Source: a phage. Taken from it: DNA of 64,000 nucleotides. This document shows positions 43,450-46,914 of the stretch, in pieces. Below the pieces are notes generated by a model, which had not been told where the DNA came from, searched no databases, and was given only the letters and a program-made list of their open reading frames with translations. The stretch lies in NCBI GenBank assembly GCA_026683435.1, contig GCA_026683435.1_4866.1. The stretch is one strand, 5' to 3'. Numbering within the stretch: the first letter of the stretch is position 1; each line of letters starts with the position of its first letter. Made by a program: the position numbers and the translations under genes.

Positions 43450-43484
43450 GGACTTACCTCCTATACGGAGTGGACGATTCGTAA

Positions 43485-43527
43485 GAAAAAAATAAATACC
43501 TACCCTCGCTAAACGGGCGAGGGTAGT
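43485..43527 (-). terminator. hairpin terminator after gene 43531..44148
   Basis: taccctcgc...gcgagggta preceded (plus) by aaaaaaataaat. Confidence 0.6.
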
Positions 43528-44148: not shown

Positions 44149-44195
44149 GCCTCGCTCCTGGTATTTGATTAAGGGGGGTCATAATACTTCACAGG

Positions 44196-44231
44196 AAAAT
44201 AATAAACAGTATAGGGGCCGAAGCCCCTATA
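44196..44231 (-). terminator. hairpin terminator after gene 44240..44629
   Basis: ataggggc-cgaa-gcccctat preceded (plus) by aataataaacag. Confidence 0.65.
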
Positions 44232-44239
44232 CGCTGTGT

Positions 44240-44629
44240 TTAATAATCGTACAAAGGATACCGTGCGGAAATTTCTTTACCTACCCAAAAAGTTAACTGG
44301 TGGGTATTAACGCTGCGGTGTGTTCGTACTGACGGGACAATTGTCGCTTTAACTTTCGGCGAACACGTACCGGCATCTATTGGCTGGTACGTCTTGCGCT
44401 TTGTGTTAACGAGATAAAAGCCACCGCCCGGACACAGTTCAGAACGCCCGTAGTTGACCACGGCAAACTCACCCTTCTCCACTGTCACGACTGGTTCATC
44501 TTTGTCGCTAAATTTTACAGGTGCGTCAGTTTCCCACATCGGTTTATACTGCGGGAAGTCCTGAATGGTAAAGGCGTTTACTGGCGCAGTAACGCAGACT
44601 ATAAACACAGCTAATACAGCACGCATCAT
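44240..44629 (-). CDS. secreted/periplasmic protein with cleavable signal peptide (129 aa)
   Basis: MMRAVLAVFIVCVTAPVNA|FT: basic n-region, hydrophobic core, A-x-A-like cleavage site. Confidence 0.6.
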   Translation of the reverse strand: MMRAVLAVFIVCVTAPVNAFTIQDFPQYKPMWETDAPVKFSDKDEPVVTVEKGEFAVVNYGRSELCPGGGFYLVNTKRKTYQPIDAGTCSPKVKATIVPSVRTHRSVNTHQLTFWVGKEISARYPLYDY

Positions 44630-44631
44630 AT

Positions 44632-45108
44632 CTAGTCCTCTTCCAGATAGGGTAGAAGCCAGTCCATTTTCTCCAAACGGTGAATCATGTTGCGAGTGTT
44701 TGGCGATACCTGTAGGGCATCATGGAACTGTTTTTTGAAGTGATGCCAGTGATAAGAGAAAGGTTTTGTTGGATAGCCCGCTTCCTTGAGAACTTCTTCC
44801 CACTCCAACCTCTGGATAAGGTGCTCGTCGACCAAAACCTCAACTAAAGCCTTCCAGGCACTCCGACGAAAATGCCGGGACAACCGACGTTTTAAATCGG
44901 CATAACTTTTTCTTTTACTGGACCGTATTGCTGGTGATGTCTTACTGTGATGAAAAGAACGTCTCGTAAGATTCAGAATCTTAACAGGAGTGCCCCTAAG
45001 CGAACTGTCTGCAATATTCAGTTCATGCTGAGGAACAAGCTCCACACGGCGGATGACGTTTATACGGGTTCCATCCGTATCTCGTGTTTCGTAAGCAACA
45101 CGTATCAT
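44632..45108 (-). CDS. basic hypothetical protein (158 aa)
   Basis: ORF track; R/K-rich. Confidence 0.55.
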   Translation of the reverse strand: MIRVAYETRDTDGTRINVIRRVELVPQHELNIADSSLRGTPVKILNLTRRSFHHSKTSPAIRSSKRKSYADLKRRLSRHFRRSAWKALVEVLVDEHLIQRLEWEEVLKEAGYPTKPFSYHWHHFKKQFHDALQVSPNTRNMIHRLEKMDWLLPYLEED

Positions 45109-45125
45109 TATACACTCTCGCTCGT

Positions 45126-45611
45126 TTAGACGAAATGACCTTCTGCCATCGAAAGAAAAATGGGAACGCTTTCAGCGTAATGAGTTAAAAACTTTTCCTC
45201 CGGTGGCGTGTGTGACGAAATAACATTGTAGTTCGTCATACGAAAATACCGTTGGCCGTCAGCAGCAATATACCATCGGTCAATCTGGAAGCCTTGTTGG
45301 TGAAAGAATCCTAGCGCGGGAATGTTGGTCGGGTGAACACGACAGCTGATGTGTTTACGATCGGAGTTCTGCTGAAGATACTTAAGCATAAATCTGCCGA
45401 CACCGCCCCGCCGCGATTCTTCGGGCACTACCATATAGACCAAATGGCCAGGTTCCCATGCCATGATTCCCCGCACGATATCATCCTCAACAAACATCGT
45501 GAGTTTAATAGGCTCCTCGCGGATACTGTTTAAGTCGCGCACCCATTCAACCAGTTCAGGATAAACATTCGCGGGAATCTTATCCTCGACCACATTAATA
45601 ACAAGCATCAC
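45126..45611 (-). CDS. GNAT-family N-acetyltransferase
   Basis: Motif A VVPEESRRGGVGRFMLKYLQQ and ...ALGFFHQQGF. Confidence 0.65.
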   Translation of the reverse strand: MMLVINVVEDKIPANVYPELVEWVRDLNSIREEPIKLTMFVEDDIVRGIMAWEPGHLVYMVVPEESRRGGVGRFMLKYLQQNSDRKHISCRVHPTNIPALGFFHQQGFQIDRWYIAADGQRYFRMTNYNVISSHTPPEEKFLTHYAESVPIFLSMAEGHFV

Positions 45612-46246
45612 TTCTCTCCACTAAGCAGGTATCTGGCTTCTGCCAATGACAGGGACGGTTTTAACAGCATGTGTAGCGGCAGGATTGTTGAACGGTGAAA
45701 CTGTGCCGGTGTTTTTGCCAGGTGTTCCAGATAGCGATTGACCGACATTTCTTGCCAATCGATAGTAGGACGAACCCAACTTATCTGTAACCATTTCCCC
45801 AATGAGACGTCACGCTTACCGCGTGGCATAATTATACTTAACTTGTACCCGTGGTCAAACTGACGCGGCGGATGGCCTGGCTCCCAAGGAACTTCGGGAC
45901 CTAACGCATCTGCAAGAAACCCTTCTTTAATTAACACATTTCTGACGGCAGCGAATATCCGTCCACGTTGCGCGGTGATCTCTTTGACGTGTGCCATGGC
46001 ATTTAGTTTACGTTTGGTAATTGCAGCGGAAAGCGCGCTGACAAACTGCCCTTCAACATACGGGGCGTTTAAGCAGCTACGAAACGGCACTACGTAAAAC
46101 GCCTCCCACAATACTTCTTCGACTGCCGCCAATAACAACGCTTCTTTCTCAGCTGCAGTAAAATCCACAGACAGCATTTTGGTAAACGAACCTAATATAG
46201 CGCTAAACGGTAGTAGTACAGACCGTTGACGAAATTGTAATTGCAT
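45608..46246 (-). CDS. hypothetical protein (212 aa)
   Basis: ORF track; ATGA-type overlap with downstream GNAT gene. Confidence 0.6.
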   Translation of the reverse strand: MQLQFRQRSVLLPFSAILGSFTKMLSVDFTAAEKEALLLAAVEEVLWEAFYVVPFRSCLNAPYVEGQFVSALSAAITKRKLNAMAHVKEITAQRGRIFAAVRNVLIKEGFLADALGPEVPWEPGHPPRQFDHGYKLSIIMPRGKRDVSLGKWLQISWVRPTIDWQEMSVNRYLEHLAKTPAQFHRSTILPLHMLLKPSLSLAEARYLLSGEK

Positions 46247-46295
46247 TTTTATATTCCTTTTGGGCCGTGCTTACACAGTAATTTACGTAGACGTA

Positions 46296-46339
46296 ATAAA
46301 AAAATAAGAAGCCTCTTCTCCAGGAGGAGAAGAGGGCTT
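46296..46339 (-). terminator. hairpin terminator after gene 46342..46914
   Basis: agcctcttctcc-agga-ggagaagagggct (12-bp stem) preceded (plus) by aaaaaaataagaa. Confidence 0.7.
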
Positions 46340-46341
46340 AA

Positions 46342-46914
46342 TTACACTTTAGGTGCGGTAGTCTGTTGCTTCGCGTTGCTCTTATTCAGCTTGTATTCAA
46401 CAACCTTGGCACCAATGGCCATCGAATTGTAAGCAAGTGTCTTAATCGGCCATGTAAAGAACACGGCCTGAGCAAACAAAGGTAAGAGCGCCACAATCAG
46501 CACATCCGTTAACTCCTGTGGATAATGTAGGTGCGTGTCCCAGGCCATCGCGCCAGTAATCACCACAGTGGTCAGCACCAACAAAACGATAAGGACTTTC
46601 TGCGGACCTTTCAAATTTGGCCACAGGGTCAATAACGTTTCTTTGGCGAGCTTTTCATCCATGCTTTCTACGGCGGCTTTTGCTTGCGATTCAAACGTTT
46701 TCGCCATGTTCCCTACCTGCTCAAGGATGAGGGGGCGTAAAGAAGTAAGAATCACGTTAGCAGGTTTAGTGACATCAATTTCAACATCACTTCCCAAAGC
46801 GGTCTGGGCGGCTGTTTTTAGTCGGTTACTCTCTTCCAGGCTTAATTTATTGGTGCCCGCCTGGATAAGAACATCCAACACATCCGTCGAGGCTTCTTGC
46901 AAAGACTGCGACAT
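46342..46914 (-). CDS. membrane protein with two C-terminal TM helices (190 aa)
   Basis: Hydrophobic segments VLIVLLVLTTVVITGAMAW and VLIVALLPLFAQAVFFTWPI. Confidence 0.55.
   Translation of the reverse strand: MSQSLQEASTDVLDVLIQAGTNKLSLEESNRLKTAAQTALGSDVEIDVTKPANVILTSLRPLILEQVGNMAKTFESQAKAAVESMDEKLAKETLLTLWPNLKGPQKVLIVLLVLTTVVITGAMAWDTHLHYPQELTDVLIVALLPLFAQAVFFTWPIKTLAYNSMAIGAKVVEYKLNKSNAKQQTTAPKV

What the first reader, a model, noticed from the sequence alone, without database searches (positions are those of the whole stretch)
44240..44629. Phage-encoded secreted protein
The N-terminus MMRAVLAVFIVCVTAPVNA-FT has all features of a Sec signal peptide, and the gene has its own terminator. 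Exported phage proteins are often superinfection-exclusion factors, lysozyme inhibitors or receptor-masking proteins.
Basis: partly seen in the sequence, partly recalled or inferred. Interest (0 to 1): 0.45.

Follow-up and report, generated by a model that had tools for sequence, protein, structure and literature searches.

The report
Exported jumbo-phage protein with hypervariable loop
A giant Salmonella phage encodes a small protein that is almost certainly exported to the space between the host's two membranes; it is a distant relative of the uncharacterised E. coli YfjS/YafY lipoproteins, and one of its surface loops evolves unusually fast, but its function is still unknown.

Summary
The ORF at 44240..44629 (minus strand, 129 aa) is real. 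It is the homolog of gp90 of the jumbo phage SPN3US, which is annotated as hypothetical in every record.

- **Export:** the N-terminus (MMR, 13-residue hydrophobic core, VNA|F) has the features of a Sec/signal peptidase I signal. These features are kept in kind, and the cleavage-site Ala in position, across 21 homologs down to 15% identity. Two cysteines are invariant.
- **Terminator:** the hairpin is real and conserved in position in distant phages. It ends a four-gene operon (gp87–gp90), so it is not a private transcription unit.
- **Virion status:** gp90 is absent from the SPN3US virion mass-spectrometry tables.
- **Fold:** AlphaFold gives a confident seven-strand all-beta model with no solved analogue.
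- **Closest family:** profile–profile comparison (91%, E 9e-7) and gene order link it to the YfjS/YafY lipoprotein domain (PF20494) of CP4-57/CP4-6-like islands. Here it lacks the lipid anchor.
- **Selection:** among close relatives gp90 is the fastest-evolving of ten neighbouring genes. The changes concentrate in loop 90–112 (pN/pS about 5, against 0.04 in the core).

Best reading: a soluble periplasmic binding protein engaged in an arms race, most plausibly superinfection exclusion. Function remains inferred. Lysozyme-inhibitor families were tested and not matched.

The parts
44240..44629 (-). gp90-homolog ORF, 129 aa including the stop codon; precursor of the exported protein
   Evidence: phrog_5248 E 9e-44; 89.9% aa identity to SPN3US_0090
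44573..44629 (-). Signal peptide, aa 1-19 (MMRAVLAVFIVCVTAPVNA); predicted signal peptidase I cleavage after Ala19, mature N-terminus Phe20
   Evidence: n-h-c layout and the AxA Ala column are conserved; Cys12 is not conserved and there is no lipobox
44243..44572 (-). Mature domain, aa 20-129 (12.5 kDa, pI 8.6): seven-strand all-beta fold with invariant Cys66 and Cys89 flanking the beta-hairpin 70-84
   Evidence: AF2 pLDDT 83.5, pTM 0.75; invariant columns; mass and pI
44294..44362 (-). Hypervariable loop, aa 90-112. It is a phage-specific insertion relative to bacterial homologs and the lowest-confidence part of the model; 10 of 23 positions vary among 7 near-identical phages
   Evidence: pN/pS 5.5 against 0.04 in the core; Fisher p 4e-5
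44209..44232 (-). Intrinsic terminator hairpin (10-bp stem, UUCG loop) ending the gp87-gp90 transcription unit
   Evidence: position conserved with different stems in five distant phages
44632..45108 (-). gp89 homolog (158 aa, very basic centre, unknown function). Its stop lies 2 nt before the gp90 start, so the two are co-transcribed and probably translationally coupled
   Evidence: adjacency kept in Erwinia phages; the two genes overlap in Caitlin
45126..45611 (-). gp88 homolog, GNAT acetyltransferase, in the same operon
45608..46246 (-). gp87 homolog (212 aa, unknown function), first gene of the operon
46292..46306 (-). TATTTTTTTATTACG motif between the upstream terminator (46335..46312) and gp87; a candidate phage-RNA-polymerase promoter for the operon (class unknown)
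   Evidence: the only other copy in the window (43480..43494) is in the equivalent position before gp92

Best explanation
The gene encodes a non-virion accessory protein of an SPN3US-like jumbo phage.

Proposed pathway: it is made in the cytoplasm as the last cistron of the gp87-gp90 transcript. It is exported by the Sec translocon and cut by signal peptidase I after Ala19. It is then released as a soluble 110-residue protein into the periplasm, where Cys66 and Cys89 form a disulfide that staples the central beta-hairpin.

The mature domain is a compact seven-strand beta fold that is distantly homologous to the YfjS/YafY domain of CP4-57/CP4-6-type islands, but here it carries no lipid anchor. 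No polar residues are conserved in a way that would suggest catalysis, so it most likely works by binding.

The binding surface would include loop 90-112, which is inserted in the phage branch and is under diversifying selection. The most likely job is to block a competitor at the envelope: superinfection exclusion by interfering with an incoming phage's periplasmic passage or with a receptor.

Shown: the ORF, operon and terminator; the signal-peptide features and their conservation; the Cys pair; the fold prediction; the remote homology; the selection pattern; and absence from virions.

Inferred: actual export and cleavage, the disulfide, the binding mode, and the exclusion function.

Approximate probabilities: exported to the periplasm 0.9; YfjS/YafY superfamily 0.75; non-enzymatic binder 0.6; superinfection exclusion or receptor masking specifically 0.3. 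The overall confidence of 0.4 is for the statement as a whole, including the binding mode and the arms-race reading.
For: Export:
- Canonical signal peptidase I signal, conserved in kind in 21 homologs with the cleavage Ala aligned.
- Only Cys66, Gly69 and Cys89 are invariant across the family.
- The related E. coli branch carries a lipoprotein signal.

Non-virion status: SPN3US_0087 to _0090 are absent from the virion and head mass-spectrometry tables, while gp84, gp91, gp94 and gp95 are listed (PMC10052503 supplement).

Fold: AF2 pLDDT 83.5, seven strands.

Homology to YfjS/YafY:
- hhalign against YfjS gives 88%, E 3e-6; against a YfjS-family alignment 91.4%, E 9e-7, with both cysteines aligned.
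- BLASTP finds a local match CxGGxxYLVxxxxKTxQPxxxxxC, E 6e-5.
- The YfjS model has the same order of seven strands, though at pLDDT 66.
- Serratia and Yersinia homologs sit in the yfjS slot, after a yfjR homolog and upstream of yfjX-yfjY homologs and a CbtA/CbeA-type (ypjF/yfjZ-like) toxin-antitoxin module, with extra or rearranged genes in some islands.

Arms-race signature:
- gp90 is 89-95% identical among Seoulvirus genomes, where nine neighbouring genes are 94.7-100% identical (nearly all 96% or more).
- Pooled pN is 0.034 against 0.002-0.0095 for the neighbours.
- Loop 90-112 has pN/pS 5.5 against 0.04 in the core, Fisher p 4e-5.
- All four combinations of signal-peptide and loop alleles exist among seven genomes.

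Host range: close homologs occur only on contigs of 150 kb or more, that is on jumbo phages.
Against: - No experiment and no dedicated predictor (SignalP) could be run.
- The function of the nearest family (YfjS/YafY) is itself unknown, so homology gives a location but not a mechanism.
- The window protein does not reach Pfam's PF20494 threshold.
- The selection signal rests on few substitutions and essentially two or three loop alleles, so the pairs are not independent. Relaxed constraint in a floppy loop would also raise pN, although it would not push pN/pS above 1.
- Superinfection exclusion is an analogy with other exported phage proteins. No similarity to any known exclusion protein was found, and nothing matched in PADLOC.
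- The temporal class of the operon is unknown.
Confidence: 0.4

Rival explanations
1. Envelope-stress modulator. Like its distant relative YafY, the exported protein would engage the Cpx (or another) envelope stress pathway, so that the phage reprograms periplasmic proteases and chaperones or envelope composition during its long infection cycle.
For: Remote homology to YfjS/YafY. YafY is one of only two of 90 E. coli lipoproteins whose overproduction activates Cpx (PMC6538781).
Against: The YafY effect is an overproduction phenotype of an inner-membrane-anchored lipoprotein, and its deletion had no phenotype in that study. gp90 lacks the anchor. A conserved host sensor as target does not explain a positively selected loop.
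Confidence: 0.13
2. Lysis-related periplasmic factor: an inhibitor or regulator of a peptidoglycan hydrolase or holin. It would act like a lysozyme inhibitor or a T4 RI-type antiholin, either setting lysis timing or protecting against lysis from without.
For: Small exported phage protein. A two-transmembrane-segment non-virion membrane protein (the gp86 homolog) is encoded just upstream.
Confidence: 0.12
3. Periplasmic protein with some other role: a nutrient or ligand binder, a decoy for a host periplasmic defence or protease, or a modifier of outer-membrane or LPS assembly that is not connected with competitors.
For: Export evidence as for the best explanation. Relatives also occur in Planctomycetota and Methylococcaceae MAGs without island markers, so the fold is not tied to one mobile-element context.
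Against: Nothing specific supports it: there are no ligand-binding or catalytic signatures, and a fast-evolving loop fits a protein partner better than a small ligand.
Confidence: 0.25
4. Not exported. The hydrophobic N-terminus would be an uncleaved membrane anchor, or a sorting signal for an intracellular phage compartment, and the protein would act on the cytoplasmic side.
For: No predictor or experiment was available. Nucleus-forming jumbo phages do sort proteins to internal compartments (PMC13282480, for background).
Against: The 13-residue hydrophobic core is too short for a transmembrane helix and is followed by Pro and a V-N-A site. The AxA column is conserved across the family, the Cys pair is invariant, and the YfjS branch has a lipobox instead. 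Bacterial homologs exist in cells that have no phage compartments.
Confidence: 0.05

Closest known systems
YfjS/YafY family lipoproteins (Pfam PF20494) of E. coli cryptic prophage-like islands CP4-57 and CP4-6
   Same: Profile-profile match over about 94-109 columns (88-91% probability, E about 1e-6) with both cysteines aligned, and a shared CxGGxxYLV...KTxQP...C core. The predicted order of seven beta strands is the same. Both are exported. Both are carried by mobile elements, and the Serratia and Yersinia members of the gp90 family occupy the yfjS slot of such islands.
   Different: gp90 scores below the Pfam threshold. It has a signal peptidase I site instead of a lipobox, so it is soluble rather than inner-membrane-anchored. 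It carries a phage-specific hypervariable insertion at aa 90-112 and is encoded by a virulent jumbo phage. The function of YfjS/YafY is unknown apart from Cpx activation when YafY is overproduced.
PHROG 5248 / SPN3US gp90 (AEP83923, YP_009153384) and its homologs in Erwinia jumbo phages (phiEaH2, Caitlin, Machina and others)
   Same: Direct orthologs: 45-99% identity, the same gp87-GNAT-gp89-gp90-terminator arrangement.
   Different: No difference in kind. All are annotated 'hypothetical protein'; the window copy carries the 'VPSVRTHRSVNTHQ' loop allele together with the 'VCVTAPVNA' signal-peptide allele.
Exported superinfection-exclusion proteins of other phages (T5 Llp, Cor, TP-J34 Ltp, T4 Sp/Imm). 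Named from general knowledge, as a functional analogy only
   Same: Small phage-encoded proteins that are placed outside the cytoplasmic membrane, are not part of the virion, and act by binding receptors or incoming phage components. Such proteins typically evolve fast.
   Different: No sequence, profile or fold similarity was detected. Those proteins are lipoproteins or membrane proteins, whereas gp90 is predicted to be soluble. No functional test exists.
Periplasmic lysozyme inhibitors (Ivy, MliC/PliC, PliG)
   Same: Small, exported, disulfide-containing beta-rich proteins.

Membership tests
Sec / signal peptidase I secretory proteins | Positively charged n-region followed by a 7-15 residue hydrophobic h-region | tested here: met
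   R3, then AVLAVFIVCVTAP (13 residues; maximum KD over 9 residues 3.58). The same layout is present in 21 homologs.
Sec / signal peptidase I secretory proteins | c-region with small residues at -3 and -1 (the AxA rule) and no Pro at +1 | tested here: met
   V17-N18-A19 | F20. The Ala column is nearly invariant; variants seen are VYA, THA, ALA, TAA, AFA.
Sec / signal peptidase I secretory proteins | Score from a trained predictor (SignalP, DeepTMHMM) and experimental cleavage or export | not testable with these tools
   No such predictor is available here, and no proteomic N-terminus data could be obtained (PMC6384053 is not held).
Bacterial lipoproteins (signal peptidase II) | Lipobox [LVI][ASTVI][GAS]C at the end of the h-region | tested here: not met
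   Cys12 is preceded by F-I-V, which is not a lipobox, and is replaced by F, A, S or L in homologs.
YfjS/YafY domain (PF20494) | Pfam HMM score at or above the gathering threshold (27 bits) | tested here: not met
   No hit for the window protein. The best family member, P0019, scores 14.3 bits, E 0.044.
YfjS/YafY domain (PF20494) | Homology detectable by profile-profile comparison, with the conserved Cys pair and core motif aligned | tested here: met
   hhalign 88.1% (E 3e-6) and 91.4% (E 9.1e-7); BLASTP local match E 6e-5.
YfjS/YafY domain (PF20494) | N-terminal lipoprotein signal (inner-membrane lipoprotein) | tested here: not met
   YfjS has LSAC-DD; gp90 and its close relatives have signal peptidase I sites.
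YfjS/YafY domain (PF20494) | Location in CP4-57/CP4-6-type islands between yfjR(-ypjK) and the yfjX-yfjY-toxin/antitoxin block | tested here: met
   Met for the bacterial members of the gp90 family (Serratia sp. DD3, S. proteamaculans, two Yersinia). Not applicable to the phage copy, which lies in a jumbo-phage operon.
Lysozyme inhibitors Ivy / MliC-PliC / PliG | Match to the family HMMs or to their folds | tested here: not met
Known superinfection-exclusion or defence proteins | Similarity to a described exclusion or defence family | tested here: not met
   PADLOC gives nothing, and the PHROG families 5248 and 9424 are 'unknown function'. The function itself is not testable here.
Spanins / antiholins (lysis cassette) | Lipobox (o-spanin), N-terminal transmembrane segment (i-spanin) or SAR domain (RI), next to holin and endolysin genes | tested here: not met
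   No lipobox, no transmembrane segment beyond the cleavable signal, a strongly hydrophobic short h-region, and no endolysin or holin annotation among the neighbours.

The most novel reading that the evidence does not exclude
The YfjS/YafY superfamily would be a mobile-element 'envelope immunity' module. It would be shared between CP4-57-type islands, where it is lipid-anchored, and nucleus-forming jumbo phages of enterobacteria, where it is soluble. Its diversifying loop would recognise components of incoming competitors (phage tail-tip or ejection proteins, or conjugation machinery) in the periplasm. On this reading gp90 is the first superinfection-exclusion factor of a chimallivirus-type jumbo phage, and it would give a function to the long-uncharacterised E. 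coli y-genes yfjS and yafY.
Probability: 0.2. Interest if true: 0.6.

Novelty: new variant of a known kind. Interest (0 to 1): 0.4.

Why it matters
Jumbo phages related to phiKZ and SPN3US are studied mainly for what they build inside the cell. Almost nothing is known about what they send to the envelope.

This gene is a clean, conserved candidate for a periplasmic effector. It comes with a built-in pointer to its interaction surface, the positively selected loop. It also has a link to two E. coli K-12 y-genes, yfjS and yafY, whose only known phenotype is Cpx activation when YafY is overproduced.

If it turns out to be an exclusion factor, it would matter for the design of phage cocktails that include SPN3US-like phages, and for understanding competition among mobile elements. 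If not, it is still an ordinary small accessory protein of unknown role, so the value is moderate.

Tried and rejected
- **Curated families:** Pfam, NCBIfam and PADLOC scans of gp90 and its relatives gave no family above threshold.
- **Solved structures by sequence:** the PDB profile search gave nothing.
- **Viral structures:** BFVD returned only seven uncharacterised Erwinia jumbo-phage proteins.
- **Lipoprotein reading of Cys12:** rejected, because there is no lipobox and the residue is not conserved.
- **Paralogs:** none were found within the 64-kb window.
- **Literature:** SPN3US gp90 is not discussed in the papers held. The 'gp90' hits refer to phiKZ inner-body protein gp90, which is unrelated. 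The infection-proteomics paper PMC6384053 is not held.
- **Temporal class:** I tried to assign one from promoter motifs. A conserved TATTTTTTTNTTACG lies upstream of the operon and a TATG upstream of gp91, but no class could be assigned with confidence.
- **Locus searches:** searches with the full family alignment failed because it has no conserved stretch. Sub-alignments worked.

Full report
**Where we are.** The 2.2 kb around the finding is 96-99% identical in DNA to Seoulvirus genomes: Salmonella phages 1252, SPLA5c and SPN3US, Escherichia phage EC001 and Proteus phage 7, all of about 240 kb. These are SPN3US-like jumbo myoviruses of the phiKZ-related, phage-RNA-polymerase-encoding group. 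The ORF at 44240..44629 on the minus strand (129 aa) is the homolog of SPN3US_0090 (AEP83923 / YP_009153384), at 89.9% aa identity. It is 'hypothetical protein' in every record. It belongs to phrog_5248, of unknown function, and matches no Pfam, NCBIfam or PADLOC family.

**Checking the observation: the signal peptide.** The N-terminus reads MMR-AVLAVFIVCVTAP-VNA|FT. It has:
- a positive n-region;
- a 13-residue hydrophobic core (maximum Kyte-Doolittle over 9 residues 3.58), which is too short for a membrane-spanning helix;
- a helix-breaking Pro;
- a V-N-A (-3,-1) site.

The mature part has no further hydrophobic segment. In a crude scan of all 124 window ORFs of at least 80 aa, this is by far the strongest signal-like N-terminus.

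The more important point is evolutionary. Homologs at 95% down to 15% identity have different sequences but the same layout, and the cleavage-site Ala falls in one nearly invariant alignment column (variants VYA, THA, ALA, TAA, AFA). Across all 21 sequences the only invariant residues are Cys66, Gly69 and Cys89. Cys12, inside the signal peptide, has no lipobox and is not conserved, so the protein is not a lipoprotein.

A conserved cleavable signal together with a conserved cysteine pair is what a DsbA-oxidised periplasmic protein looks like. That last step is inference. SignalP could not be run.

**Checking the observation: the terminator.** The hairpin at 44232..44209 has a 10-bp stem and a UUCG loop, followed by a U-rich tail. 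Its energy is -21 kcal/mol, z = -6.4 against shuffles. A hairpin with a different stem sequence sits right after the homolog in SPAsTU, pEa_SNUABM_29, Caitlin, phiEaH2 and Phobos, so the signal is conserved in function.

It is an operon terminator, though. The gp90 start lies 2 nt after the stop of the gp89 homolog, and the genes overlap in Caitlin. The unit runs gp87 (46246..45608), gp88 GNAT acetyltransferase, gp89, gp90, bounded upstream by another terminator at 46335..46312. The gp87-GNAT-gp89-gp90 order is kept in Erwinia jumbo phages.

**Not a virion protein.** The SPN3US virion and head mass-spectrometry tables (PMC10052503, supplement) list gp84 and gp91 (tail) and gp94 and gp95 (head), and even trace non-virion proteins such as gp86. 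SPN3US_0087 to _0090 do not appear. This fits a protein that leaves the cytoplasm.

**Structure.** AlphaFold2 on a seven-sequence alignment gives a confident model: mean pLDDT 83.5, pTM 0.75. It has a short helix after the signal peptide and then seven beta strands. The two cysteines flank the hairpin formed by strands 70-75 and 80-84. The only weak stretch is residues 101-110, with pLDDT 68.
- Foldseek against the PDB finds nothing significant.
- A profile search of PDB sequences finds nothing.
- Against predicted viral structures, the seven significant hits are all uncharacterised proteins of Erwinia jumbo phages at 14-20% identity.

There is therefore no solved analogue. In particular Ivy, MliC/PliC and PliG do not appear, by fold or by HMM.

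**Relatives.** The family is small. A profile search of 1.84 billion representative proteins returns 22 hits. Some are homologs in other enterobacterial jumbo phages: Cronobacter CR5 gp205, Erwinia Derbicus and Phobos, and an unnamed lineage on contigs of about 225 kb. The rest are proteins of about 110-125 aa from Serratia and Yersinia chromosomes and from a few metagenomes. Where the N-terminus is complete, they all carry an N-terminal signal peptide and share the motif DAGTSCPAG...GTCDD...A.YP.Y. In IMG/VR the close relatives lie only on contigs of 151-246 kb.

**Link to YfjS/YafY.** The bacterial copies are informative. In Serratia sp. DD3, S. proteamaculans and two Yersinia genomes the gene sits in integrative islands. 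Where a yfjR homolog is present (Serratia sp. DD3 and the Yersinia genomes) it lies just downstream of it, and it lies upstream of yfjX (antirestriction) and yfjY (RadC-like) homologs and a CbtA/CbeA-type (ypjF/yfjZ-like) toxin-antitoxin module, with extra or rearranged genes in some islands. That is the slot held by yfjS in E. coli CP4-57 and by yafY in CP4-6.

Sequence comparison agrees:
- BLASTP of the window protein against YfjS finds CPGGGFY-LVNTKRKTYQPIDAGTC against CEGGSYYYLVDMEEKTVQPLMNALC, E 6e-5.
- hhalign of the family profile gives 88% (E 3e-6) against YfjS and 91.4% (E 9e-7) against a YfjS-family alignment, over 94-109 columns with both cysteines aligned.
- One member hits PF20494 weakly, E 0.044.
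- A lower-confidence model of YfjS (pLDDT 66) shows the same order of seven strands.

I conclude that gp90 is a distant member of the YfjS/YafY superfamily (probability about 0.75). It is below Pfam's threshold and has a signal peptidase I signal instead of the lipobox (LSAC) of YfjS. In other words, it is a soluble version of an inner-membrane lipoprotein domain.

This does not give a function. YafY is 'an IM lipoprotein of unknown function', notable only because its overproduction activates Cpx (PMC6538781). Searches found no further characterisation.

**Selection.** Among seven Seoulvirus genomes the nine neighbouring genes (gp85 to gp94) are 94.7-100% identical in protein (nearly all 96% or more), whereas gp90 is 89-95% identical. 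Pooled pN is 0.034 for gp90 against 0.002-0.0095 for the neighbours, and pN/pS is 0.20 against 0.03-0.10.

The changes are not spread evenly:
- 4 of 19 positions vary in the signal peptide, which tolerates change;
- 10 of 23 vary in loop 90-112;
- 5 of 70 vary in residues 20-89;
- none of 17 vary in the C-terminal strands.

Between the window and SPN3US the loop has 7.5 nonsynonymous and 0.5 synonymous differences (pN/pS 5.5). The core has 2 nonsynonymous and 15 synonymous (pN/pS 0.04). Fisher p is 4e-5.

The loop coincides with an 11-residue insertion specific to the phage branch and with the low-confidence part of the model. The signal-peptide and loop alleles occur in all four combinations, which points to recombination inside the gene.

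Caveats: the number of events is small, the pairs are not independent, and there are essentially two or three loop alleles. Even so, a tightly constrained core combined with a surface loop at pN/pS above 1 is the usual mark of an interaction surface in an arms race.

**Mechanism.**
- Shown: the ORF, operon and terminator; signal-peptide and Cys-pair conservation; the predicted fold; the remote homology; the non-virion status; and the selection pattern.
- Inferred: Sec export, cleavage after Ala19, the Cys66-Cys89 disulfide and a soluble periplasmic location (about 0.9). Also inferred is action by binding rather than catalysis, because no polar residues are conserved beyond structural ones (about 0.6).

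The partner is unknown. A variable partner met in the periplasm by a virulent phage with a long cycle is most simply a competitor phage's entry apparatus or a receptor. That would make this superinfection exclusion or masking (about 0.3), in analogy with exported exclusion proteins of other phages. I found no sequence or fold similarity to any of them.

The rivals are:
- a YafY-like effect on envelope stress signalling (0.13);
- a lysis-timing or hydrolase-inhibitor role (0.12);
- some other periplasmic role (0.25);
- no export at all (0.05).

**Novelty and verdict.** That a phage ORF has a signal peptide is routine.

What this analysis adds:
- the link to the YfjS/YafY superfamily and its island slot;
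- the switch from a lipid-anchored to a soluble form;
- restriction of the close family to jumbo phages;
- the hypervariable, positively selected loop.

The function remains unknown for the whole superfamily. I therefore rate this a new variant of a known kind, of moderate interest (0.4). It offers a testable and fairly cheap route to a first envelope-directed factor of SPN3US-like phages.

Noticed in passing
window 46342..46914 (-): The gp86 homolog (190 aa, phrog_8722, unknown function) has two predicted transmembrane segments (aa 101-119 and 134-152). It is 'non-virion' in the SPN3US mass-spectrometry tables and ends at its own terminator (46335..46312). It is a phage inner-membrane protein encoded directly upstream of the gp87-gp90 operon.
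   Followed up: partly
window 46292..46306 and 43480..43494 (-): TATTTTTTTNTTACG occurs exactly twice in the 64 kb. Each copy lies just after a terminator hairpin and upstream of an operon (gp87-90 and gp92 onwards), and the motif is conserved upstream of the gp87 homologs of SPAsTU and pEa_SNUABM_29. It is a candidate phage-RNA-polymerase promoter, but it overlaps the terminator T-tract, so it may be partly coincidental.
   Followed up: partly
window 44149..44208 (-), upstream of the gp91 homolog: A TATG motif (GTATTATGACC) is conserved at the same place in SPAsTU, pEa_SNUABM_29 and phiEaH2, upstream of a tail-protein gene. It resembles the phiKZ late-promoter T-A-T-G(+1) element described in PMC7598289.
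   Followed up: partly
window 44240..44629 (-), compared with L001, L002 and L017-L020: The signal-peptide alleles (VCVTAPVNA / ICVTTSVYA) and the loop alleles occur in all four combinations among seven near-identical phages, which indicates recombination within a 390-bp gene. One loop allele introduces a third cysteine (R105C).
   Followed up: partly
protein cluster P0015: A homolog at 47% identity lies on contigs of about 223-227 kb in well over a hundred assemblies labelled Shigella, Salmonella or E. coli. No phage carrying it appeared among the GenBank phage hits. This may be a second jumbo-phage lineage that is common in isolate assemblies.
   Followed up: no
L013 18149..18616 (E. coli K-12 yfjT) and L014 3621..4088 (ykfB): yfjT, the gene next to yfjS, encodes a protein with a classical signal peptide (MKIRSLSRFVLASTMFASFTASA|VP). 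ykfB occupies the equivalent position next to yafY in CP4-6 and is the same length (467 nt), but it was not translated here. If ykfB is like yfjT, these islands carry two adjacent exported proteins of unknown function.
   Followed up: no
window 44632..45108 (-): The gp89 homolog has an extremely basic central stretch (RRSFHHSKTSPAIRSSKRKSYADLKRRLSRHFRRS), and its stop lies 2 nt before the gp90 start (overlapping it in Caitlin), which suggests translational coupling. There is no family annotation (phrog_9187).
   Followed up: no
GenBank records LR535901-LR535921 (SPFM phages): Several SPFM records match this region only in 4-34 broken pieces, and their gp90 annotations are truncated or chimeric (P0008, P0011-P0014). 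This suggests frameshift-rich assemblies rather than real variants.
   Followed up: no
L024 and L025: Members of the family with signal peptides also occur in a Planctomycetota MAG and a Methylococcaceae MAG, without CP4-57-type island markers nearby. The fold is not restricted to Enterobacterales.
   Followed up: partly
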